64,000 nt of DNA from NCBI GenBank assembly GCA_964631835.1, contig CAZWAD010000021.1, positions 271 to 64,270 on the forward strand, read 5' to 3'. The number at the start of each line of letters is the position of its first letter. The stretch's first letter is position 1. Made by a program: the position numbers and the translations under genes. The DNA is from an uncultured Chitinophaga sp. (GTDB taxonomy: Bacteria; Bacteroidota; Bacteroidia; Chitinophagales; LD1). Of this stretch, positions 1,519-61,837 are shown in pieces. Under the pieces are notes generated by a model. The model had not been told where the DNA came from, ran no database searches, and was given only the letters and a program-made list of their open reading frames with translations.

Positions 1519-1764
1519 CATTTTATAATATACAGCGGCACTTTCCGTACAGAAAGTGGCGATTTATAACGTAAAACACCACTTGGAGTACGGCAATTGT
1601 TAATCTATAACATAAAATACCGGTTTGGGTAGACAAATTCTTAATCTATAACGTAAAACAGCAGTTGCGGTAAAAAAAGTGGTATTCTATAAATTAAAAC
1701 ACCGGTTTGGGTGCCGGAACAGGCAGTATATAAAATACAAAGGCGATTGGGGAAGGTAAAGCGG
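1519..1764. repeat. Array A: 6 degenerate tandem units of exactly 41 nt (consensus about taatCTATAACGTAAAACACCGGTTTGGGTA...AAAGTGG)
   Basis: The TATAA core occurs at 1524, 1565, 1606, 1647, 1688 and 1729, a constant 41-nt spacing. The units align without indels. The array lies in the divergent intergenic region upstream of CDS 1918-2904. Confidence 0.8.
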
Positions 1765-38165: not shown

Positions 38166-38390
38166 TTAGTTCTGTTTTGGGGGAACTATACGCAGCTTAC
38201 CGTTGAAACCGTTGGCAAGCTTGAGCAATTTAGGCAGTTTTGGAGTTTTAACTCCTTTTTCAATATTGCAAATATCTGAGCGGTCAACGCCCGATGCAGC
38301 TTCCAGGTCGCCTAACGACATATGGAAGCTTTCCCTTAATTCTTTAAGGTGGAGGCAAAACTCGCTGTGTAGAACCTGTTCTTTTTTCAT
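38166..38390 (-). CDS. XRE-family helix-turn-helix transcriptional regulator (74 aa)
   Basis: LKELRESFHMSLGDLEAASGVDRSDICNIEKG matches the Cro/C1 HTH pattern. Confidence 0.8.
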   Translation of the reverse strand: MKKEQVLHSEFCLHLKELRESFHMSLGDLEAASGVDRSDICNIEKGVKTPKLPKLLKLANGFNGKLRIVPPKQN

Positions 38391-38425
38391 GACTAAGAAT
38401 TTTCAGCCAAGTTCATGAATGTTAA

Positions 38426-38463
38426 AATCCGTACTGTTGGCGTTCCCGCCAACAGTACGGATT
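38426..38463. promoter_or_regulatory. Perfect 17-bp inverted repeat with 4-nt spacer (candidate operator or hairpin)
   Basis: AATCCGTACTGTTGGCG-TTCC-CGCCAACAGTACGGATT. Located 36 nt upstream of the HTH gene start and 99 nt before array B. Confidence 0.6.
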
Positions 38464-38561
38464 ACATCTGCCTTCATTTTTGCAGCGTAATCAATACCAA
38501 ACCCAACATGCAATCAACCCGCTTCAGTTCTACCGGTACACAAATGAGCAGAGGCTCTGCT

Positions 38562-38813
38562 GAACTCCCGAGGGCTTCTGCAACACGTAACAAACCACAA
38601 CCGGAACTCCCGAGGGCTTCTGCAACGTGTAACAAACCTCAACCGGAACTCCCGAGGGCTTCTGCAACGCGTAACAAACCTCAACCGGAACTCCCGAGGG
38701 CTTCTGCAACGCGTAACAAACCCCAACCGGAACTTCCGAGGGCTTCTGCAACACGTAACAACCCCCAACCGGAACAGCGGAGGGCTTCTGTAACAGGTAA
38801 CAAACCAATTTTT
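38562..38813. repeat. Array B: 6 tandem units of exactly 42 nt (GAACTCCCGAGGGCTTCTGCAACGCGTAACAAACCTCAACCG)
   Basis: Units start at 38562, 38604, 38646, 38688, 38730 and 38772. Units 1-5 are about 90% or more identical and unit 6 is degenerate. The array ends 22 nt before the ATG at 38836. Confidence 0.92.
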
Positions 38814-38835
38814 AAACTATAAAACCCAATTTACC

Positions 38836-40038
38836 ATGCCAAAACGTAAACTACCCCGTACCGATGAAGAGCGCGACACCGCACTTCGCACAGCCAAGAA
38901 CCGCAAAGATGCAGTTCCGCCTCCGCTCATTATTCCTTATACCGGAGCTACCATCACGCGGCTCGACACTTTTCAGCCCGCATACCGCACCAAGTACCTG
39001 GCGGTAGCTTCAGCCAAGAACGCCCAAACCGCGCTAACGGAACAAGTGTTAGAAGCCAAGCAGCAAGCCACTTATTATATTCTTGATTTTATAGATGCGC
39101 TCAACCGCGCCATACGCAGAAAACAGTTTTTGCCTTCGGTTCGCGCCTTGTATAATATTGATGTGAATGACGACCGCGCACCTGAAATAGATAATGAAGC
39201 CGATGTAACCACCTGGGGCGAAAACATTGATGCCGGTGAAACCACCCGCATTGCTGCCGGTGGAGCGCCCATTACTTTTCCATCGCTGGCGCAGGTAAAT
39301 ACCGCAGTAGGCAATTTCAATACGCTGAACGCCCAGCAAAGCAACGCGAAAGAAGCCTATGACATAGCCCAGGAAGCACTGGCTGCCGATAACCCCGAAG
39401 CCGATAAACTAATTCTGAAGCTGTGGAACGAAACCGAAACTGCTTTTGACGAAGGCAACAAGAGCAGTATGAGGCGCAAAGCCCGCGAATGGGGGGTGGT
39501 TTATACCATTGCTTCGGGCGAAGTGCTCAGCCCCGAAGAGTTTTCGATTACCGGTAAAATATCCCTGTCGGTTCCGGGCGCACCAGTACCGGTTGCCGAT
39601 GCGGTGATTACTGTGCTGGAAACAGGCGAGTCGGTACTCAGCCAAAGCAATGGCAACTACTTTATTACCGTGCTGCCTGCCGGAACCTACACACTGGTAG
39701 TGGATAAGGTGGGGTACACCTCTCAAACCATCAATAATGTAGCAGTTGTTGAAGGAGAGATAACTACGGTTAACGTTCAATTAGTAACAGCCGCCAGCAA
39801 CGGAAGCATAGTAGGCACGGTTACCCTGGGCGGCAATCCGGCATCGGCTACGGTAAGCATTGACGGCACCACATTCAGCACCAACACCGCCTTTACGGGC
39901 GTTTATACCATCGAAAATATACCGGCAGGAAACATAACGGTGCGCGCAACCATTATTGCCGACCCGGTAAATTTTCAAACACAAAATGTAACCGTGGTTG
40001 CCGGTGTGGCCACCGAAGTAAATTTCAGCTTCCCGTAA
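38836..40038 (+). CDS. Hypothetical protein (orphan N-terminal region plus two CarboxypepD_reg-like beta-sandwich domains), no signal peptide
   Basis: 400 aa with a basic N-terminus (MPKRKLPRTDEERD). The C-terminal segments GNYFITVLPAGTYTLVVDKVGYTSQT and GVYTIENIPAGNITVRA resemble carboxypeptidase-regulatory-like domains. Confidence 0.72.
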   Translation: MPKRKLPRTDEERDTALRTAKNRKDAVPPPLIIPYTGATITRLDTFQPAYRTKYLAVASAKNAQTALTEQVLEAKQQATYYILDFIDALNRAIRRKQFLPSVRALYNIDVNDDRAPEIDNEADVTTWGENIDAGETTRIAAGGAPITFPSLAQVNTAVGNFNTLNAQQSNAKEAYDIAQEALAADNPEADKLILKLWNETETAFDEGNKSSMRRKAREWGVVYTIASGEVLSPEEFSITGKISLSVPGAPVPVADAVITVLETGESVLSQSNGNYFITVLPAGTYTLVVDKVGYTSQTINNVAVVEGEITTVNVQLVTAASNGSIVGTVTLGGNPASATVSIDGTTFSTNTAFTGVYTIENIPAGNITVRATIIADPVNFQTQNVTVVAGVATEVNFSFP

Positions 40039-40105
40039 CCCTGTCATCCTCCGGAGTAGGTGTCCCGCTGCTCAGAGCGGAACCGAGAAGGTAAATAAAG
40101 GAAAA

Positions 40106-40124
40106 GCCCCAAACGGGGCTTTTT
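40106..40124 (+). terminator. Rho-independent terminator of CDS 38836-40038
   Basis: GCCCC-AAAC-GGGGC followed by TTTTT. Confidence 0.7.
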
Positions 40125-40210: not shown

Positions 40211-42247
40211 ATGAAAAAAAATCTACAAGCTTTTGGTTTTTTCCTACTGTTGTCAGTAAGCGCATTAGCGCAAACACCCATAGCGTCCTACCCGCTTGAT
40301 GGTAATGCTGTTGACGGCTCCGGCAATGGATTTAACGGGACCATTAATGGTAATCCAGTTGCTACATCAAACAGATTCAGCCAGACAAGTAGTGCTATGA
40401 ATTTCGATGGTAATGGAGATTATGTCTTGCTTCCGCTTTCGGCTGATTTTCCAAGCAGAACAGTAATAGCGTGGGTTAACCCGGCAGTAATAGGCACCGG
40501 TGATGGTATTAATGTGATTTATGCCTGCGACTATGCAGCTATTCAAAACGGAGTTACCGTTTTGGCAACCATTGATGACAATATACAAGGTCCGATTTTC
40601 AAGATACAAGCTGACCAGATTTTCTATGAGACACCCGCTTTGACCAATCGCTGGTATCAGTTAGCGGTTACCCGTACCCCGTCTGAGGTAAAAATTTATA
40701 TGGATGGCGCTCTCGTCCATTCCGGCACTAATCCGAATGGTTTGCACTCTGGGAATGGTATTTCGCAAGCGGTAATTGGCGATAGCCGTAATTTTGATGA
40801 GGGGTTTATCGGCAAAATTGATGATGTACTCATTTACAACACCGCTCTTTCCGATAGCGCTATTCTTTTGAACTACCAGGCCTGGCGCGATTCTATTGTT
40901 GAAATTACCGGCAAGGTGTATTTCGACAACAACCAGAATAATGTTTTTGATTCTACTGATCAGCCCATCCGCAACGTTACTGTAAACATAGGCAACAGCG
41001 TTACAGCCATTACCAATGCCAATGGCGATTACACGGCTGTTACGCTTTCCGGAAACTATACCATTACTCCGGTTCTGCCTAATAATATTTCAGCTTTCCC
41101 CGTAAGCCCTGATAGCATTGTTCTTGCTGCCGACACCCTCGGGCGAACCTATTCGGGCAACGATTTTGGCGTTCAGGCGCCCGCCAATTATTGCGATGGC
41201 AGTCTGGCTGTGGTTGCGGTGAACTTCCCGCCCCGCCCCGGATTTACCAACCGGATAAATGTGCGCTATGTAAACGATGTTTCGGTAACGCCAATCAACC
41301 AAACCATAGAGTTTCATTATCCCTCGCAGCAGAGCTATGTTTCAGCAACACCGGCACCTACTGCCGTAGATACCAATCAGCGCACCATTAGCTGGGATAT
41401 TAACGCACTCCCCAGCGGAACGCTGTGGCAGGCTATGGTAACTCTTTATACTCCGCCAACGGTGGCCATGAGTTCGATATTAAGCATGACAGCGGTGGTT
41501 ACCACATCTACCTGTGCGACACTTGACCTCCCTCTTGAAGATAATGCCCAGGTGATAGTGGTCGGCTCTTTCGACCCGAACGACAAGGCGGTATCACCGG
41601 TAGGCGAAGCACCGGGCGGAAGAATTGTGCCGTCAACACCTCAGTTGGATTACACCATCCGCTTTCAGAACACCGGAACTTTTCTGGCTGAAAACGTAAA
41701 CATTGTTGACACCATTTCCCCGCATTTGAATATTTCCACACTGAAGGTGACAGCCGCCTCCCACAATTACCAGGTGTTGCTGGACGGGCGCACAGTTACC
41801 TTCCGCTTCCTGAATATTATGCTGCCCGACAGTAACAGCAACGAACCGCTGAGCCATGGCTTTGTTAAATATACCATAGAGCCTGCCGCCAGTTTTGTTC
41901 AGGGCACGGTTATACAAAACTTTGCCGACATCTATTTCGATTTCAACACACCGGTGCGCACCAACACGGTGCAGAACATGGCTGACATCACCATTGGAAT
42001 TGTAAAGGCAGAGAGCAGCAATCTTACTTTTGATATTTTCCCCAACCCGCTTTCCACCGGCAGCTGGCAGTTGGTTGCTGATGAAACGGCTGTGGGAAAA
42101 GAAATCAGGATGTTTGACGCCACGGGAAGACAAGTTTATACTTCACGCATAACTAACCAGAGGACAGAAATAGACGGAACCTGGTTGCAACAGGGAGTTT
42201 ACTTAGTCAGGATAGAGGGTTCGGTGGTTAGGGTGGTTAAGTTGTAA
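40211..42247 (+). CDS. Secreted LamG-domain protein, T9SS cargo
   Basis: Signal peptide, then a LamG/Laminin_G_3-like N-terminus (YPLDGNAVDGSGNGFNGT...IDDVLIYNTALS), an SFDPNDK motif region and a C-terminal sorting domain (FDIFPNPLSTGSWQL...GVYLVRIE). Confidence 0.85.
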   Translation: MKKNLQAFGFFLLLSVSALAQTPIASYPLDGNAVDGSGNGFNGTINGNPVATSNRFSQTSSAMNFDGNGDYVLLPLSADFPSRTVIAWVNPAVIGTGDGINVIYACDYAAIQNGVTVLATIDDNIQGPIFKIQADQIFYETPALTNRWYQLAVTRTPSEVKIYMDGALVHSGTNPNGLHSGNGISQAVIGDSRNFDEGFIGKIDDVLIYNTALSDSAILLNYQAWRDSIVEITGKVYFDNNQNNVFDSTDQPIRNVTVNIGNSVTAITNANGDYTAVTLSGNYTITPVLPNNISAFPVSPDSIVLAADTLGRTYSGNDFGVQAPANYCDGSLAVVAVNFPPRPGFTNRINVRYVNDVSVTPINQTIEFHYPSQQSYVSATPAPTAVDTNQRTISWDINALPSGTLWQAMVTLYTPPTVAMSSILSMTAVVTTSTCATLDLPLEDNAQVIVVGSFDPNDKAVSPVGEAPGGRIVPSTPQLDYTIRFQNTGTFLAENVNIVDTISPHLNISTLKVTAASHNYQVLLDGRTVTFRFLNIMLPDSNSNEPLSHGFVKYTIEPAASFVQGTVIQNFADIYFDFNTPVRTNTVQNMADITIGIVKAESSNLTFDIFPNPLSTGSWQLVADETAVGKEIRMFDATGRQVYTSRITNQRTEIDGTWLQQGVYLVRIEGSVVRVVKL

Positions 42248-42274
42248 TCTTATTCAATAACTCCATGAGAAAAA

Positions 42275-42300
42275 AGCTCCGCCCGTGCGGGGCTTTTTTT
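42275..42300 (+). terminator. Rho-independent terminator of CDS 40211-42247
   Basis: GC-rich hairpin (GCTCCGCCCGTGCGGGGC) followed by T7. Confidence 0.7.
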
Positions 42301-42326
42301 ATATTTACGATACACGCTTTACCTGC

Positions 42327-44996
42327 ATGAGAAAACTTTTACTTGCTATTCTACTTCTTGTTTGTTTCTCACAAAGCCGGGCGCAGCTTGCCTATACCAA
42401 CCGGTGGTACTTCGGGCAAAATGCGGGGCTTGATTTCAGCGGAGGAGCACCTGTGGCTATTACCGGCAACACGAGTGTAGATGAAGGCACTGCCACCATT
42501 TGCGATGCCACCGGCAATGTGGTTTTTTATACAGACGGAACAAAAATCTGGAACCGGAATAGCCAAATCATGCCTAACGGTAATGGTATTATGGGCGGTT
42601 CCGGTTCATCGCAACAGTCGCCCTTGATTATCAAAAGCCTGAGTTCGCCCACGCAGTATTATGTGTTTACCATTGGCGACCATATTGCTCACATCAACCA
42701 GTTCAGGTACTCGGTGGTTGACATGTGTTTGGACGGAGGTTTGGGTGATGTGGTAACTGCACAGAAAAACATTTTAATCGGAACCGGTTACACCGAATGC
42801 TTAGTGGCTGTCCGCAAACCCAACAATACCGACCTGTGGCTCATTACCACCAAAATGAATTCCAACACCTGGAATGTTTTCACCTTCAATGCCTCAGGGC
42901 TGAATATGACACCGCTGGTAAGCAATGTGGGTCCGCAGTGCGGTAATGAGATTGGCTGGCTGCGGATTAACCATGCAGGAAACAAACTGGCACACTGCAC
43001 CACTTTCAATCCCTGCCGTGCACTCATCCTTTTTGATTTTGACCGGGCCACCGGAATTATCTCCAATCCGGTAACTCTGAATGCGGCTAACGATTTTTAC
43101 GGGGCTGAGTTTTCTCCGAATGACAGCATTCTGTATGTCACCGATGTGTGGTACGACAATTTTATTTTCCAGTATAACGTTTATACCGGTGCGATGGATA
43201 CGGTGGACTATCAGCCTACTTCATTTGCCGGGTACTATCAGTATGGGGCTTTGCAGCTTGGCCCGGATGGAAAAATATATGTGGCGAATTTCGATTCCAC
43301 ATTTGTTTCCTGCATCAACAATCCCAATGTGTGGGGGGCAGGATGCGGCTTTGTGAAACATGCAGTTAATCTTTTGCCAGGTACACGCTCGAAGTTCGGA
43401 TTGAACATTGCGTATCAGAATTATGTTATTGACCCCGATTCGGTGACTGATAATTTTTCTATTACTCTTTCGTGTAATCTGGCTTCGTTCTCAGCTCAAC
43501 TTACCAGCACATACGATTCCATAAAATGGAATTTCGATGAACCTTCTTCCGGAAATAACAACACGGCAAGCGGAAATTCAGTTTCTCATGCTTATGCTTC
43601 TCTCGGCACCTATAATGTGGCGATGTATTTGTTCTCATCATGCAAAACGGATACGATTATCAGACCGGTGAACATCAGCAGTTTGGCTGGAATAACTCCC
43701 ATTCAGCTTGGAAGTGATACCAACTACTGCGGAAGTTTTTCTGTTACTCTTTCTGCCAGCGATGCCGGCACTATTTGGAGCACAGGAGCAACTGCCGCTC
43801 AAATCAATGTAAACACCGGGGGCACTTACTGGGCAAGCTTTACCAACAGTTGCGGAACGGTAAGTGATACTATAGTAATTAATCAAAGTAGTTTGCCAAT
43901 AGTGGGTCTTGGAAATGACACCACACTTTGCAACGGGCAATCGCTGATGCTCAACGCGGCAAATACAGGTTCCACTTACTTGTGGCAGGATAATTCTGTA
44001 ACAGCTACCCTTCCTGTTTCGACAACAGGTGTGTACAGTGTGACAGTGACCAATTCTGCCGGATGCGCGAAGGCTGATACCATTTCCGTAAGCAGTTCCA
44101 ATTTGTTTTTGGCGGTTTCTACCACCAACACCAGTTGTGGTATGAGCAACGGGGCTGTATTGGTGAATGTGCTCACCGGCTCTGCTCCGTTCACCTTTGT
44201 GTGGAACAATGGGGGAACTAATGATACACTCAGCAATCTTACTTCCGGAATCTATTCGGTCACTGTTCATGATGCCACCGGTTGTTCCTCAACTGCGGGT
44301 GCGCTGGTAAATTCTTCCGGTGCAGGCAGTGTAACTGTTTCATCCGATAAAAGTGTGATGTGCTCGGGCGACAGCGCTCATATATGCGCCTCCGGCAGCT
44401 TCGCCAGCTACTTGTGGAACAACGGGCAAACCGGTCAGTGTATTTACACTAAGCTGGCAGGAAATTATTATGTGACCGCCACCGATGCCGGAAACTGTAC
44501 GGCATCTTCCACCGCGCTTCCGCTTGCGGTTTATCCGCTGCCACCGGTTTCCATCAGCGTAAATGGCGACACGCTCACCGGTTACAATGCTGTAACTTAT
44601 CAATGGTATCTCGATGGCTCTCCGATAAGTGGAGCAACATCACCGGTATATATCGCCCAGCAATCGGGCGATTATACTTTACTGGTTACAGACAGCAATG
44701 GTTGCCGGGCTGTTTCAACAATCGTTGCCATCGTTATCGGAGTGAATGATTTACAATTTGAGGAGGGTGTAAATATTTTCCCGAATCCAAATGAAAATGG
44801 TGAGTGGCAATTGGCAGTTGGCAAAGAGTGGCTGGGTGGTTTTGCAGAGGTGTTTGATGTGGCCGGAAGGGTGGTGTACAAATCTGCAATCCGAAATCTG
44901 CAATCCGAAATAACTTTGGACGTTTCGCGGGGAGTTTACCTGTTGCGGATATCCTCGGTACAAAAAATTTATACAGTTAAGCTGTTTAACCTTTAA
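42327..44996 (+). CDS. Large secreted T9SS cargo protein with PKD- and Ig-like repeats
   Basis: The start was moved to the ATG at 42327 (MRKLLLAILLLVCFSQSRAQ); the ORF-track start lies inside the upstream terminator. Contains a PKD-like segment (WNFDEPSSGNN...HAYASLGTYNVAMY), cysteine-paired Ig-like repeats and a C-terminal sorting domain (NIFPNPNENGEWQL...GVYLLRIS). Confidence 0.85.
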   Translation: MRKLLLAILLLVCFSQSRAQLAYTNRWYFGQNAGLDFSGGAPVAITGNTSVDEGTATICDATGNVVFYTDGTKIWNRNSQIMPNGNGIMGGSGSSQQSPLIIKSLSSPTQYYVFTIGDHIAHINQFRYSVVDMCLDGGLGDVVTAQKNILIGTGYTECLVAVRKPNNTDLWLITTKMNSNTWNVFTFNASGLNMTPLVSNVGPQCGNEIGWLRINHAGNKLAHCTTFNPCRALILFDFDRATGIISNPVTLNAANDFYGAEFSPNDSILYVTDVWYDNFIFQYNVYTGAMDTVDYQPTSFAGYYQYGALQLGPDGKIYVANFDSTFVSCINNPNVWGAGCGFVKHAVNLLPGTRSKFGLNIAYQNYVIDPDSVTDNFSITLSCNLASFSAQLTSTYDSIKWNFDEPSSGNNNTASGNSVSHAYASLGTYNVAMYLFSSCKTDTIIRPVNISSLAGITPIQLGSDTNYCGSFSVTLSASDAGTIWSTGATAAQINVNTGGTYWASFTNSCGTVSDTIVINQSSLPIVGLGNDTTLCNGQSLMLNAANTGSTYLWQDNSVTATLPVSTTGVYSVTVTNSAGCAKADTISVSSSNLFLAVSTTNTSCGMSNGAVLVNVLTGSAPFTFVWNNGGTNDTLSNLTSGIYSVTVHDATGCSSTAGALVNSSGAGSVTVSSDKSVMCSGDSAHICASGSFASYLWNNGQTGQCIYTKLAGNYYVTATDAGNCTASSTALPLAVYPLPPVSISVNGDTLTGYNAVTYQWYLDGSPISGATSPVYIAQQSGDYTLLVTDSNGCRAVSTIVAIVIGVNDLQFEEGVNIFPNPNENGEWQLAVGKEWLGGFAEVFDVAGRVVYKSAIRNLQSEITLDVSRGVYLLRISSVQKIYTVKLFNL

Positions 44997-59211: not shown

Positions 59212-59262
59212 TGTTTGAAAATTGATTGGCTGAAAATAGCAATTGATTACATTCGCTTTACC

Positions 59263-60294
59263 ATGAATAAAAACCTTCAGTCAGAAAAAGCTGATTTGTC
59301 AACCGAAGAACAGGAGGTCGAAAAATCCCTCCGGCCGAAGGTGATTGATGATTTCATGGGTCAGCCGAAGGTGGTTGATAATCTTTATGTATTTATTGAA
59401 GCCGCTAAGCAACGCAGCGAATCGCTGGACCATGTGTTGCTTCACGGACCACCGGGTTTAGGCAAGACCACCCTGAGTTATATTGTTGCCAGTGAGATGA
59501 ATGTGGGCATTAAGATTACATCGGGGCCGGTGCTGGAAAAGCCCGGAGACCTTGCAGGACTGCTTACGAATCTTCAGCCGAATGATGTGTTGTTTATTGA
59601 TGAAATTCACCGGCTGTCACCGGTTGTGGAGGAATACCTCTATAGTGCTATGGAAGATTTCAAGATTGATATTATGATTGACAGCGGACCCAATGCGCGC
59701 TCAGTTCAAATCGGCCTCAATCCATTTACACTTGTTGGCGCAACCACACGCTCCGGGTTACTTACAGCACCGCTGCGCTCGCGTTTCGGCATTACTTTCC
59801 GCATGGAATATTATGATGCTGAAATTCTTAAGAATATTATCAAGCGCTCAGCAAGAATTTTAAAGGCAGAAATTAATGACGATGCGGCTTATGAAATTGC
59901 ACGGAGGAGCAGAGGAACACCGCGGATTGCGAACCTTCTTCTTCGCAGGGTGCGAGACTTTGCACAGGTAAAGGGTGACGGAACCATCAACCTGAAAATA
60001 ACCAAACACGCGCTCGAGGCGCTGAATGTTGACCTGCACGGGCTGGATGAAATGGACAACCGTATTCTTGCAGCAATTATCAATAAGTTTAAGGGAGGGC
60101 CTGTGGGTATTACGACTATTGCCACGGCAGTAGGGGAGGAAACAGGAACTTTAGAAGAGGTTTATGAGCCTTTTTTGATTAAAGAAGGGTTTATCAAGCG
60201 CACCCCGCGCGGAAGAGAGGTGACTGAACTTGCTTATAAGCACCTCGGCAAGACTCCGCCAGCAGTTGGCGGTAGTTTGTTCCAGAATGATTGA
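59263..60294 (+). CDS. ruvB: Holliday junction branch-migration helicase RuvB
   Basis: [10 protein letters not shown] Walker A and LFIDEIHRL Walker B motifs, [16 protein letters not shown]-like segment. The start was moved to the ATG at 59263. Confidence 0.95.
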
Positions 60295-60360
60295 GATTGT
60301 GGTTTTGTAAGACCTGATTCGGATGGAGCAGCTGTTTATCTGCCCCGTACAGGCTTAAAT

Positions 60361-60633
60361 TCTTGTCTGTAACTATTGATTTGTTGACTGTAACTATTAG
60401 TTTGTTGTCTGTTAGGTATGATTTGTTGTCTGTAAGCATTAAGTTGTTGTCCGGCAGATGTAAATTGTTATCTGTTAGATATGAATTGTTGTTCGTTAGA
60501 TACGTTTTGTTGTCTGTTATTATCTAATTGTTGCTCGTTAGATATAATTTGTTGGCTGTAAGTATTGATTTGTTGTCTGTAAGATGTAAGTTGTTGTCTG
60601 TAAGATTTAAATTGTTTGGTTTCAGGGTTAGTT
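60361..60633. repeat. Array C: 13 tandem units of exactly 21 nt (consensus TGTTGTCTGTAAGATNTAAKT)
   Basis: Units start at 60361 + 21k for k = 0..12 with no indels, and 11 of 13 begin TGTT. The array lies in the convergent intergenic region between ruvB and the FemAB-like gene. Confidence 0.9.
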
Positions 60634-60838: not shown

Positions 60839-61837
60839 TTAGTTTGCCCAGCGGTAATTCATGCCAGTGGTGTTCTGTTGAACGCCTTTCAGCCGGAGAT
60901 AAATATTGAGAAGGGTTTTATAGAGTTTGTAGCGCCAGGTGATTTCGGAATAGAAATGGAAGCCTTTTTCAACGGTTGCGCCAAAGCGGATTTTAAACTT
61001 TTGGATGCCTTCATATTTGGTTCCGCTTACATCGCCTAATCGGAAGCCGCCCATGCAGTAACGCTTAATACCCTTTTGTTTCAGCAGTTTCATTACTTCA
61101 AGTTGCAAGAGTTTATTCGCACCGGGGTAGGGGCAGTCATCTACCCCGCCCGACTGATAGTAGTAAGCTTCCTGTGCGTTCCACAGCACTAAAGCTGCGC
61201 CATATACTTCGTTATCCTTTTCCACTACTGCAACCAAACAGTTCTTTTCACCAAGACTGGCTGCCATGCTACTGACTTCCCTCTCGGGGTCAAAGTAGAT
61301 ATTTTGTTTCTGGTGGGTGTGCTTATATAATTCATAAAAGACAGGGAACCGGTTGTTGCTGAAAACCACTTTCACCCCAGCGGCTAGGGCTTTTCGTATT
61401 TCATTGCGGTAGTTATCGCTGAAGGCTTTAAAAATTTCTTCTTCGCTTTTACTAAGGTCAACGGTTATAATTCCCATTTCGGTAAAGAGGCTTCCCGAAG
61501 GGACCGCCTGAAAAACAGAATAGTGAAGCGGGGGCATAATGAAGTCGCAAATGTTTTGTTGTTTACAGAATGCGAGCATTTTTTCGAGGAAAATATTTTC
61601 TTCTTCGGGGGAAAGGCGCAAGCCGTTCATAACCGGAGGGTATAAATACTGCGCCTGCTTAACCAGTTTTGCCTGCCGGGTTTTAAGGGGAATGATTGCT
61701 CCGGCTTCGTCAGCAATCAAAACCAGATTCCAGCCTTTGCTTTGCTCAAATGCTGCATAGTTTTGCTGAAAATACAAGGGGTATTTTTCTACTGCTTCGA
61801 TTTGATGGAAAGAAACAATCTTCATAGGGCAAATCAA
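60839..61837 (-). CDS. FemAB-family / GNAT-fold aminoacyl- or acyl-transferase
   Basis: 332 aa with a duplicated GNAT-like layout. EAYYYQSGG...GANKLLQLEVMKLLKQKGIKRYCMGG resembles the FemAB/lipid II peptide-bridge transferase family. Confidence 0.7.
   Translation of the reverse strand: MICPMKIVSFHQIEAVEKYPLYFQQNYAAFEQSKGWNLVLIADEAGAIIPLKTRQAKLVKQAQYLYPPVMNGLRLSPEEENIFLEKMLAFCKQQNICDFIMPPLHYSVFQAVPSGSLFTEMGIITVDLSKSEEEIFKAFSDNYRNEIRKALAAGVKVVFSNNRFPVFYELYKHTHQKQNIYFDPEREVSSMAASLGEKNCLVAVVEKDNEVYGAALVLWNAQEAYYYQSGGVDDCPYPGANKLLQLEVMKLLKQKGIKRYCMGGFRLGDVSGTKYEGIQKFKIRFGATVEKGFHFYSEITWRYKLYKTLLNIYLRLKGVQQNTTGMNYRWAN

What the first reader, a model, noticed from the sequence alone, without database searches (positions are those of the whole stretch)
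38562..38813. Array B: six near-identical 42-nt units ending 22 nt before an orphan gene
The units start at 38562, 38604, 38646, 38688, 38730 and 38772. A truncated unit-like fragment (GAGCAGAGGCTCTGCT, 38546-38561) precedes the first one. The array occupies the position where the promoter or 5'UTR of CDS 38836-40038 should be. Either the promoter lies inside or upstream of the repeats and the mRNA carries a roughly 250-nt repetitive leader, or the repeats are upstream binding sites. All of units 1-5 are highly similar, which suggests recent expansion or homogenisation. That would make the array a candidate copy-number-variable switch. Three reading frames are open across it only because the unit lacks stop codons.
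Basis: partly seen in the sequence, partly recalled or inferred. Interest (0 to 1): 0.7.

Follow-up and report, generated by a model that had tools for sequence, protein, structure and literature searches.

The report
Conserved 42-bp repeat array–gene module
The six 42-base repeats are real, and more than 80 similar arrays (always 41-43 bases per unit, but unrelated in sequence) sit in front of relatives of the same uncharacterised gene across several bacterial phyla, so this looks like an undescribed array-plus-gene system rather than a local oddity.

Summary
In detail: 38562-38807/38813 holds 5.9 copies of a 42-nt unit at 92% identity.

The downstream gene 38836-40038 is not an orphan. It belongs to a family I call FAM, with about 92 protein clusters, 55 genome loci and 146 metagenome loci. 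FAM has a novel 231-232-aa helical N-domain and one or two CarboxypepD_reg domains.

FAM homologues are preceded by a tandem array in at least 31 of 50 genome loci and 47 of 70 metagenome loci. The period is 42 in 63 arrays, 41 in 3 and 43 in 3. Unit sequences are otherwise unrelated. None of 252 control upstream regions has such an array.

- Units usually carry an inverted repeat: arms of at least 6 bp in 28 of 51 arrays, against 4 expected.
- Arrays show higher-order repeats of 84 or 126 nt.
- Two pairs of otherwise identical loci differ by exactly one unit.
- No neighbouring gene is conserved, the XRE gene included.
- The arrays are not coding, and they are not CRISPR, TIGR-Tas or any Rfam family.

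Most likely (about 0.4) it is a helically phased dsDNA array of cognate binding sites that controls FAM expression. 42 bp is four helical turns. The main rival (about 0.3) is a sense-strand repeat RNA bound by FAM. The mechanism is inferred; the conserved module is shown.

The parts
38546..38561 (.). Array-proximal pseudo-unit. It is a perfect palindrome, AGCAGAG-G-CTCTGCT, related to unit positions 9-22.
   Evidence: Sequence. Terminator-like hairpin flagged.
38562..38813 (+). Tandem array of six 42-nt units; unit 6 is degenerate. Consensus: GAACTCCCGAGGGCTTCTGCAACACGTAACAAACCACAACCG. Each unit is an imperfect inverted repeat (CCGGAACTCCC-GA-GGGCTTCTG, spanning the unit junction) followed by an A/C-rich 20-nt segment.
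   Evidence: Homologous arrays upstream of FAM homologues.
38809..38835 (+). A-rich spacer between the array and the start codon. It contains the motif TTTTTAAACTAT, which recurs 25-47 nt before the ATG in many related loci. Its function is unknown; it may be a core promoter or leader element.
   Evidence: Gibbs motif search and the upstream sequences of related loci.
38836..40038 (+). FAM gene (400 aa). It has a novel elongated helical N-domain (residues 1-232; length is invariant in the family; basic N-terminal arm MPKRKLPRTDEERD...) and two acidic CarboxypepD_reg beta-sandwich domains. There is no signal peptide.
40102..40123 (+). Intrinsic-terminator-like hairpin with a T-run after the FAM gene. 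The FAM gene is probably monocistronic here.
38166..38390 (-). Divergent XRE/HTH_3 gene (74 aa). It is a neighbour in this window but is not a conserved part of the module.
38426..38463 (.). Perfect 17-bp inverted repeat with a 4-nt loop, between the XRE gene and the array. It is unique in the window. It may be the XRE operator or an insulator, but this was not resolved.

Best explanation
The array is the cis element of a conserved two-part module: a tandem array with a 42 +/- 1 bp period, followed by the FAM gene.

I think it most likely works as double-stranded DNA. Each unit carries one inverted-repeat site, and sometimes two about 21 bp apart. Because 42 bp is four turns of B-DNA, all sites lie on one face of the helix. 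A sequence-specific, co-evolving protein could then bind side by side and cooperatively just upstream of, or over, the start of the FAM transcription unit and set its expression. The best candidate is the FAM product itself, through its conserved basic N-terminal arm and its rod-like N-domain of invariant length.

Gain or loss of whole units by unequal recombination changes the number of sites without changing helical phase, which gives heritable tuning of expression.

Shown:
- the array exists and belongs to a conserved module;
- the period is fixed;
- inverted repeats are enriched in the units;
- copy number differs between otherwise identical assembled loci;
- the arrays are non-coding.

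Inferred:
- the array acts as dsDNA;
- FAM is the binding protein;
- the output is regulation of expression.
For: 1. Conservation. Arrays lie upstream of FAM in at least 31 of 50 genome loci, plus degenerate arrays in L020, L021, L023 and L026. They also occur in 47 of 70 metagenome loci and in the 4 closest relatives. They span Bacteroidota, Ignavibacteriota, Verrucomicrobiota and Planctomycetota. None of 252 control upstream regions reaches the same score, and no other 41-43 arrays occur in about 600 kb of flanks.
2. Period. 63 arrays have period 42, 3 have 41 and 3 have 43, with nothing outside that range, while unit sequences share no common motif. A tolerance of +/-1 bp at 4 x 10.5 bp is what helical phasing predicts.
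3. Inverted repeats. Arms of at least 6 bp occur in 28 of 51 non-redundant units, against 4.2 in shuffles. About half have centres of 0-2 nt, that is, operator-like palindromes of 12-20 bp such as GTGTCTAAAC|GTTTAGACAC and CTTATTTGT|ACAAATAAG.
4. No strand-specific RNA signal. Within stems, G-T mismatches (60) are not significantly more common than A-C mismatches (43). The window's array is not unusually structured as sense RNA (z -1.3).
5. Promoter position. In L032, L096 and L137 a conserved sigma-70-like promoter lies 70-100 nt before the ATG, about 210 nt downstream of the array, so there the array is an upstream element.
6. Neighbours. FAM is the only conserved neighbour. Paralogues in one genome have different arrays: L002, L012, L016, L018 and L019.
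7. Protein length. The N-domain is 231-232 aa in all 29 aligned members, which parallels the invariant period.
8. Copy number. One-unit differences separate loci that are otherwise 100% identical.
Against: - FAM has no recognisable DNA-binding domain. It gives no significant fold match (best E 0.17) and no family match.
- Its N-domain is near neutral and its C-terminal domains are strongly acidic (pI about 4).
- The arrays show a consistent strand asymmetry relative to the gene: C>G in 29 of 38 (p = 7e-4) and A>T in 27 of 38. Some short motifs are oriented (CCCATT 8 vs 0, AAAAAG 6 vs 0), and the 2-nt palindrome centres are purine-rich. A purely symmetric dsDNA function does not predict any of this.
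- Palindrome sequences differ completely even between proteins that are 55-67% identical. The self-complementarity is kept while the sequence is not, which is more typical of hairpins.
- Arm spacing ranges from 0 to more than 12 nt, which is unusual for one protein family.
- L032 has a sense-strand terminator directly after the array.
- The window's own unit has only an imperfect palindrome.
- No promoter was identified in the window.
Confidence: 0.4

Rival explanations
1. Sense-strand repeat RNA. The array is transcribed, either as the FAM leader or as a separate upstream transcript. Each 42-nt unit forms a short hairpin plus an A/C-rich single-stranded linker. FAM binds the units, and the protein sets the unit length. 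The result would be translational autoregulation, an RNA scaffold or sponge, or unit-length small RNAs loaded on FAM. The layout would be analogous to CRISPR or TIGR loci, but without spacers.
For: - Self-complementarity is conserved while sequence is not.
- Strand asymmetry is consistent relative to the gene: G-poor and A-rich on the sense strand.
- Some motifs are oriented, and loop centres are purine-rich.
- Cognate half-units fold slightly better than chimeras: -0.27 kcal/mol, p = 0.011 on the + strand against p = 0.047 on the - strand. This test is confounded by decayed end units.
- L032 has a terminator-like hairpin directly after the array, followed by a separate promoter for FAM.
- In the window only 22 nt separate the array from the ATG, so a promoter upstream of or inside the array would put repeats in the mRNA.
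- Some arrays have two constant and two variable blocks per unit, as in dual-repeat TIGR arrays: L002, L007 and L013 (PMC12045711).
Against: - A flexible single-stranded linker would not be expected to hold the period to +/-1 nt across phyla.
- G-U is not significantly favoured over A-C in stems.
- Many palindromes are perfect through the centre.
- The window's array as sense RNA is not more stable than shuffles (z -1.3). Several arrays have almost no hairpin: L005, L012, L025, L032 and L038.
- There is no Rfam match.
- FAM is acidic overall and has no known RNA-binding fold.
- No convincing promoter was found upstream of the arrays.
Confidence: 0.3
2. Tandem promoter array. Each unit is a copy of a weak promoter element (a -7-like box TTYGCA), and multiplying it raises or diversifies transcription initiation of FAM.
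For: - Array-less Bacteroidales orthologues have a single near-canonical -7 box (TATATTCGCAC or TATATTTGCAAC) about 40 nt before the ATG.
- In L023 most units carry TAnnTTCGCA-like boxes at 42-bp spacing.
- WIN-clade units contain TTCTGCAAC, TTCCGCAAC, TTCGCAC or CTTTGCAC.
- No canonical promoter is found elsewhere.
Against: - Most units, including the window's, lack a TAnnTTTG box and a correctly spaced -33 TTTG.
- Ignavibacteriota-type loci have a separate good sigma-70 promoter downstream of the array.
- The idea does not explain the enrichment of inverted repeats or the strict period.
Confidence: 0.1
3. Neutral minisatellite. The array is a recombination- or slippage-prone repeat that hitch-hikes upstream of FAM and has no function.
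For: Higher-order repeats of 84 and 126 nt and one-unit copy differences show satellite-like turnover. Sequence divergence is fast.
Against: - The array persists upstream of one gene family across at least four phyla, and none is seen at 252 control sites.
- The period stays at 42 +/- 1 although the sequences have diverged to saturation.
- Inverted repeats are about 7-fold enriched.
Confidence: 0.08
4. Guide-RNA array of a TIGR-Tas-like or CRISPR-like system.
For: The unit size (36-42 nt) and the pattern of two conserved plus two variable blocks in some arrays resemble dual-repeat TIGR arrays. The array sits next to its associated gene, and one locus has a terminator after the array (PMC12045711).
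Against: - FAM has no Nop domain by Pfam or by fold. Nop56/58 (2nnw) ranks 47th at E = 1.3.
- Units in most arrays are near-identical, so there are no diverse spacers.
- No cas genes are nearby.
- There is no PADLOC hit.
- The module is absent from viral contigs.
Confidence: 0.05
5. Coding repeat. The array encodes a 14-aa tandem-repeat peptide (ORF 38415-38822, repeat ELPRASATRNKPQP).
For: 42 is 14 codons. In the window, frame +0 is open and 6 of 8 unit differences are synonymous. Gene callers call such ORFs in L056 and L059.
Against: - Arrays in L013, L036 and L038 have stops in all six frames.
- L037 has stops in all three sense frames, and L032 in all three too.
- Periods of 41 and 43 exist.
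- Synonymous changes are not generally enriched in the open frames.
- A stop-free 42-nt unit is expected by chance in about half of frames.
- The ORF has no Pfam match.
Confidence: 0.02

Closest known systems
sopC centromere of the F plasmid (12 tandem 43-bp repeats, each with an inverted repeat bound by SopB). This comparison is from my own knowledge and was not tested here.
   Same: Both are tandem direct repeats of 42-43 bp. Each unit contains a short inverted repeat. The repeats are cis-linked to the gene of the (proposed) binding protein, and the unit length is close to four helical turns.
   Different: There is no ParA/ParB-type partner. The arrays are chromosomal, with up to five different modules per genome. 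They lie upstream rather than downstream of the gene. The FAM protein is unrelated and has no known DNA-binding fold.
TIGR arrays of TIGR-Tas systems (PMC12045711; bioRxiv 10.64898/2026.09.09.750476)
   Same: Both are short fixed-length tandem units next to the associated gene. Some arrays alternate two conserved blocks of about 12 nt with two variable blocks of 8-10 nt. There are palindromic or stem-loop variants. Sequence is poorly conserved between loci.
   Different: The protein has no Nop domain. Most arrays have near-identical units and so no spacer diversity. The period is 42 rather than 36. The arrays are always upstream and co-oriented. The module is not found in phages.
Phase-variable or copy-number-variable promoter-proximal repeats, for example the nadA TAAA tract in Neisseria and the uspA2 AGAT tract in Moraxella. 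This comparison is from my own knowledge.
   Same: The repeat lies between upstream sequences and the start codon. Copy number varies between strains and could tune expression.
   Different: The units here are 42 bp, not 1-7 bp. They carry inverted repeats. The array is conserved as a class across phyla with a fixed period.
Iterons and operator arrays of autoregulated plasmid proteins (Rep iterons, omega and ParR sites). This comparison is from my own knowledge.
   Same: Both are phased tandem sites bound cooperatively by the product of the adjacent gene, and site and protein co-evolve.
   Different: Iteron periods are about 7-22 bp, and the proteins have known winged-helix or ribbon-helix-helix folds. 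There is no replication or partition context here.

Membership tests
TIGR-Tas | The associated protein contains a Nop domain. | tested here: not met
   Pfam finds only CarboxypepD_reg-type domains. The AlphaFold2 N-domain model (pLDDT 93.6) has no significant PDB match. The best hit has E = 0.17, and Nop56/58 (2nnw) ranks 47th at E = 1.3.
TIGR-Tas | Units carry two variable 8-12-nt spacers flanked by box C/D motifs. | tested here: not met
   Units 1-5 in the window differ at only about 3-5 positions. Many related arrays are 90-96% homogeneous. No common CCA...UG framing motif was found.
CRISPR-Cas | Direct repeats are separated by unique spacers of similar length, with cas genes nearby. | tested here: not met
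   The units are head-to-tail with no spacers. Neighbouring genes are glycosyltransferase, asparagine synthase, XRE and T9SS cargo genes. There is no PADLOC hit.
sopC/ParB-type centromere | A ParA ATPase and a ParB-like binding protein are encoded alongside, in a plasmid or partition context. | tested here: not met
   No conserved neighbour other than FAM exists. The window is chromosomal, with tuf and a tRNA cluster. One genome can hold several modules.
sopC/ParB-type centromere | Tandem repeats of about 43 bp each carry an inverted repeat. | tested here: met
   The period is 42 +/- 1 in 69 arrays. Inverted repeats are enriched, in 28 of 51 units against 4.2 expected.
Known structured RNA families (Rfam 15) | A covariance-model match. 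| tested here: not met
   The only gathering-threshold hits in the window are 4 tRNAs. In E-value mode on 38350-38900 there are only chance-level hits outside the array.
Tandem-repeat protein-coding sequence | An open frame is maintained across arrays and substitutions are biased towards synonymous changes. | tested here: not met
   L013, L036 and L038 have stops in all frames. Periods of 41 and 43 exist. There is no general excess of synonymous changes.
Copy-number-variable (contingency-type) promoter repeat | Unit number differs between closely related strains. | tested here: inconclusive
   L066 has 7 units and L068 has 8; L079 has 5 and L080 has 4. In both pairs the genes and flanks are 100% identical. 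These are short-read metagenome assemblies that can miscount repeats. No close relative of the window's own array was found.
Copy-number-variable (contingency-type) promoter repeat | Unit number changes expression of the downstream gene. | not testable with these tools
   This needs reporter fusions or transcriptomics.
Helically phased protein-binding array (working model) | Sequence-specific protein binding to the units as dsDNA. | not testable with these tools
   Only indirect evidence exists: a period of 4 x 10.5 bp with +/-1 tolerance and palindromes with 0-2-nt centres.

The most novel reading that the evidence does not exclude
The 42-nt arrays and the FAM proteins form a previously unrecognised, widespread class of repeat-array/effector system. 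The locus layout is comparable to CRISPR or TIGR: an array of fixed-length, hairpin-bearing units next to a co-evolving protein, with several orthogonal copies per genome. It would be built on an unrelated rod-shaped protein with a new fold that measures out 42-nt units of nucleic acid (RNA or DNA). In Bacteroidota the modules often sit in front of T9SS-secreted surface-protein genes, so they may control or assemble surface structures.
Probability: 0.3. Interest if true: 0.9.

Novelty: categorically new. Interest (0 to 1): 0.8.

Why it matters
A strictly conserved repeat length combined with free sequence, specific to one gene family and spread over at least four phyla, points to a molecular ruler. 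CRISPR and TIGR arrays first drew attention for this kind of pattern.

If the array is a phased DNA site array for a rod-like protein with a new fold, it defines a new DNA-binding architecture and a simple, evolvable dial for gene dosage through unit number. If it is an RNA, it defines a new repeat-RNA/protein system.

Either way it:
- gives a testable function to an uncharacterised protein family that databases label only 'carboxypeptidase regulatory-like domain-containing';
- explains a recurrent source of spurious ORF calls across such arrays;
- supplies more than 80 natural array/protein pairs with different specificities for dissecting recognition.

Tried and rejected
- **Coding repeat.** Rejected: stops in all frames in several arrays, periods of 41 and 43, and no general excess of synonymous changes.
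- **XRE gene as conserved partner.** Rejected: a divergent HTH gene occurs in only 3 loci.
- **TIGR-Tas or CRISPR membership.** Rejected on the protein fold and on the lack of spacers (PMC12045711).
- **Rfam families.** None match.
- **Canonical Bacteroidota promoter (TAnnTTTG) in or near the arrays.** Essentially absent.
- **Units derived from, or antisense to, the 5' end of the gene.** Rejected: z is about 0 in 28 loci.
- **Motif common to all arrays.** None was found, only partial oriented k-mers shared by subsets.
- **Strand-specific RNA pairing signal.** G-U against A-C counts were 32 vs 34 and then 60 vs 43, not significant.
- **Cognate versus chimeric half-units.** The test gave a weak signal that is confounded by decayed end units.
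- **Phage origin.** No viral contigs carry the module.
- **Close relatives of the window's own array in metagenomes.** None found.
- **Profile search of 1.84 billion proteins.** It was swamped by CarboxypepD_reg repeat proteins, because the profile kept the C-terminal columns, so it gave no new domain fusions.
- **Literature searches for 42-bp repeats.** Only eukaryotic satellites and unrelated items came back.
- **Protein-array co-variation.** It could not be separated from shared descent.

Full report
**1. The observation**

Positions 38562-38807 hold 5.9 head-to-tail copies of a 42-nt unit, GAACTCCCGAGGGCTTCTGCAACACGTAACAAACCACAACCG. They match at 92% with no indels. Units 1-5 differ at a handful of positions. 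Unit 6 (38772-38813) is degenerate and runs into an A-rich 22-nt stretch before the ATG at 38836. The unit core occurs nowhere else in the 64-kb window: 6 hits, all in the array, against 0.13 expected. The preceding fragment 38546-38561 is a perfect palindrome related to part of the unit.

**2. Context**

The window is a Bacteroidota chromosome. It carries a tuf gene with a Thr-Gly-Tyr-Thr tRNA cluster and T9SS-sorted proteins.

- Upstream, on the other strand, is a 74-aa XRE/HTH_3 gene (38166-38390).
- A perfect 17-bp inverted repeat lies at 38426-38463.
- Downstream, 38836-40038 encodes a 400-aa protein followed by a terminator-like hairpin at 40102-40123.
- Next come two Por_Secre_tail (T9SS) proteins.

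**3. The gene is not an orphan**

About 92 homologous protein clusters were found (E down to 1e-137). They are full length, about 400 aa, and named at best 'carboxypeptidase regulatory-like domain-containing protein'.

- The alignment shows an N-domain that is strongly conserved and almost free of indels, plus one or two C-terminal CarboxypepD_reg domains. Some members have the N-domain only.
- The N-domain is 231-232 aa in all 29 aligned members. Its pI is about 5-9, while the C-terminal domains have a pI of about 4.
- AlphaFold2 models it with high confidence (pLDDT 93.6) as an elongated bundle with two helices of about 55 residues.
- Foldseek finds nothing significant in the PDB (best E 0.17) or in BFVD.
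- Pfam, NCBIfam, PHROGs, PADLOC and a PDB sequence-profile search give nothing for this domain.
- There is no signal peptide. The N-terminus is a conserved basic arm with consensus MPxRRLPxSxxxRxxAL.

I call the family FAM.

**4. The key result: a conserved module**

Fetching 55 genome loci that encode FAM relatives and running TRF showed that nearly every closer relative has a tandem array just upstream, co-oriented with the gene. The period is 42 (occasionally 41 or 43, or super-periods of 84 or 126), and the unit sequences are entirely different. The loci come from Bacteroidota, Ignavibacteriota, Verrucomicrobiota and Planctomycetota.

- Several loci that TRF missed have degenerate arrays. 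In these only a motif of about 8 nt recurs every 42 nt: L020, L021, L023 and L026.
- The four closest relatives (57-67% identity) also have arrays.
- An independent set from metagenomes replicates the finding. In 47 of 70 loci with at least 200 nt of upstream sequence, the best period is 42, 43 or 84.
- Pooled, the strong arrays have period 42 (63 arrays), 41 (3) or 43 (3), and nothing else.
- As a control, none of 252 upstream regions of other genes in the same loci reaches the score threshold at any period. TRF found no other 41-43 arrays in about 600 kb of flanks.
- No neighbouring gene is conserved. A divergent HTH gene like the window's XRE is seen in only three loci.
- Some genomes carry up to five modules, each with a different unit.
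- The module is absent from viral contigs.

**5. Anatomy of the units**

- No motif is shared by all arrays.
- Inverted repeats are strongly enriched. Arms of at least 6 bp occur in 28 of 51 non-redundant consensus units, against 4.2 in shuffles with a maximum of 9.
- About half of the best inverted repeats have a centre of 0-2 nt, giving true palindromes of 12-20 bp. The rest have loops of 4-12 nt.
- Seven units have two separate inverted repeats 17-21 nt apart.
- Heterogeneous arrays (L002, L007, L013) alternate two conserved blocks of about 12 nt, half a period apart, with two variable blocks of about 8-10 nt.
- Arrays show higher-order repeats: A-B-A-B in L006, and A-B-C in L007 and L013. 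This indicates satellite-like unequal exchange.
- Two pairs of loci with 100% identical genes and flanks differ by exactly one unit: L066 vs L068 and L079 vs L080. Short-read assemblies can miscount repeats, so this needs confirmation.
- The window's unit has only an imperfect inverted repeat (CCGGAACTCCC-GA-GGGCTTCTG) plus a 20-nt A/C-rich segment. It shares sub-motifs with the arrays of relatives: ACAAACCACAACCKGAA with L056, CCGGAAC...CCGAGGG with L018, and TTCYGCAAC with L001.

**6. What it is not**

- *Not coding.* Several arrays have stops in all frames, periods of 41 and 43 exist, and synonymous changes are not generally enriched. The window's frame +0, with 6 synonymous to 2 non-synonymous changes, is an isolated small sample. 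ORFs such as 38415-38822, and those called in L056 and L059, are therefore artefacts.
- *Not CRISPR.* There are no spacers and no cas genes.
- *Not TIGR-Tas.* The papers define TIGR by a Nop-domain Tas protein and dual spacers framed by box C/D motifs (PMC12045711; bioRxiv 10.64898/2026.09.09.750476). FAM has no Nop domain by sequence or fold, and most arrays have no spacer diversity.
- *Not an Rfam family*.
- *Not related to the gene's 5' end.* The unit is neither derived from it nor complementary to it.

**7. DNA or RNA?**

For dsDNA:
- The period equals four turns of B-DNA and tolerates only +/-1 bp across phyla, even though sequences have diverged to saturation.
- Many palindromes are perfect through the centre.
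- Within stems, G-T mismatches are not significantly commoner than A-C mismatches: 32 vs 34 and 60 vs 43.
- The window's array is not unusually stable as sense RNA. The z-score is -1.3, against -2.2 for the antisense strand.
- In three Ignavibacteriota-type loci a conserved sigma-70-like promoter (TTGACT/A-17-TAAAAT, TAGATT or TACTAT) lies 70-100 nt before the ATG. That is about 210 nt downstream of the array.

For a sense-strand RNA:
- The arrays are consistently G-poor and A-rich on the gene's strand. GC skew is negative in 29 of 38 arrays (p = 7e-4), and AT skew is positive in 27 of 38.
- Some k-mers occur only in the sense orientation.
- The 2-nt centres are purine-rich.
- Self-complementarity is conserved while the sequence is not.
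- L032 has a terminator-like hairpin directly after the array.
- In the window there is no room for a promoter between the array and the ATG, and no TAnnTTTG box anywhere nearby.

A motif TTTTTAAAyCAA recurs 25-47 nt before the ATG in many Bacteroidota loci, at 38809-38820 in the window. I could not assign it a function.

**8. Mechanism**

I favour, at about 0.4, a helically phased dsDNA array of cognate binding sites that controls FAM expression. The FAM protein itself is the most plausible binder for three reasons: it is the only conserved neighbour, its N-domain length is invariant in parallel with the invariant period, and it has a conserved basic N-terminal arm. Unit number would act as an evolvable dial.

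The main rival, at about 0.3, is a sense repeat RNA bound by FAM. Tandem promoters (0.1), a neutral minisatellite (0.08), a TIGR-like guide array (0.05) and a coding repeat (0.02) follow.

The existence of the module, its fixed period, the inverted-repeat enrichment and its non-coding nature are shown. Binding, the nature of the substrate and the regulatory output are inferred.

**9. Novelty**

Full-text searches for 42-bp or 42-nt repeats returned nothing relevant in bacteria, and no library names the N-domain. The nearest analogues are the F-plasmid sopC centromere (43-bp repeats with inverted repeats; from my own knowledge) and TIGR arrays. The defining features of both families were tested and are not met. 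I therefore rate this as a new kind of array-plus-gene module, with the caveat that its function is unproven.

**10. Verdict**

It is wrong on the 'orphan' gene and on the XRE partner. Interest is 0.8.

Noticed in passing
window 1565-1707: This is a second tandem array ('Array A'): period 41, 3.5 copies, 74% matches. Its units begin TATAACGTAAAACACC. It lies about 210 nt upstream of ORF 1918-2904, which has a weak Mfa2/fimbrillin-like Pfam hit and is not a FAM homologue (hhalign probability 0.2). The ACGTAAAAC segment resembles ACGTAACAAAC in Array B.
   Followed up: partly
window 60356-60616: This is a third array: about 12 copies of a 21-nt unit, TAATTTGTTGTCTGTAAGATA (TRF also reports periods 42 and 63). 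It lies between the convergent genes ruvB (59215-60294) and a FemAB/GNAT-like gene (60839-61837), so it is not upstream of any gene. It looks iteron-like, and its function is unknown.
   Followed up: no
window 38426-38463: A perfect 17-bp inverted repeat with a 4-nt loop (AATCCGTACTGTTGGCG TTCC CGCCAACAGTACGGATT) lies between the XRE start codon and the array. It is unique in the window. It may be the XRE operator or an insulator.
   Followed up: partly
window 38415-38822 (+); also L056 510-968 and L059 1750-2040: ORFs of 96-152 aa run through the arrays and are called as genes by automatic pipelines. They exist only because a 42-nt unit without stop codons keeps a frame open, and they should not be annotated as proteins.
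   Followed up: yes
L032 5690-5760, L096 1184-1260, L137 1190-1260: In Ignavibacteriota-type loci the array is followed by a conserved segment of about 60 nt (TGTTTTTG..CTTTTCATACCTGA..TTTTCAGACTTTTTGAC). About 150 nt further on comes a conserved sigma-70-like promoter for the FAM gene. The role of the conserved segment is unknown.
   Followed up: partly
L079 515-600 and L116 about 1115-1310: Between the 42-nt array and the FAM start codon, two unrelated loci carry further short tandem repeats. L079 has AATTTCT x3 and CCTAAAT x4. L116 has TCATTCA repeats and CCTAAAT x5. The same heptamer, CCTAAAT, recurs in both loci.
   Followed up: no
L127 and L122, between the array and the FAM gene: Inverted pairs of an element of about 35 nt (GAGTTAAGGTTTCCAACCCCTTTGGGGATTTGAAACC) are inserted between the array and the gene, twice in L127. 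They look like a MITE or another mobile palindromic repeat, and they move the array more than 500 nt away from the gene.
   Followed up: no
window 40211-44996; also L002, L005, L006, L008, L010, L012, L014-L017: In Bacteroidota the FAM gene is very often followed by large secreted proteins. These have signal peptides and either T9SS C-terminal sorting domains or tail-fibre-type C-terminal chaperone motifs. This hints at a link with cell-surface structures, although FAM itself has no signal peptide.
   Followed up: partly
L039-L055 (Bacteroidales orthologues): Short FAM orthologues (N-domain only, 235-277 aa) mostly lack a detectable array. Several instead have a single near-canonical -7 promoter box (TATATTCGCAC or TATATTTGCAAC) about 40 nt before the ATG.
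   Followed up: partly
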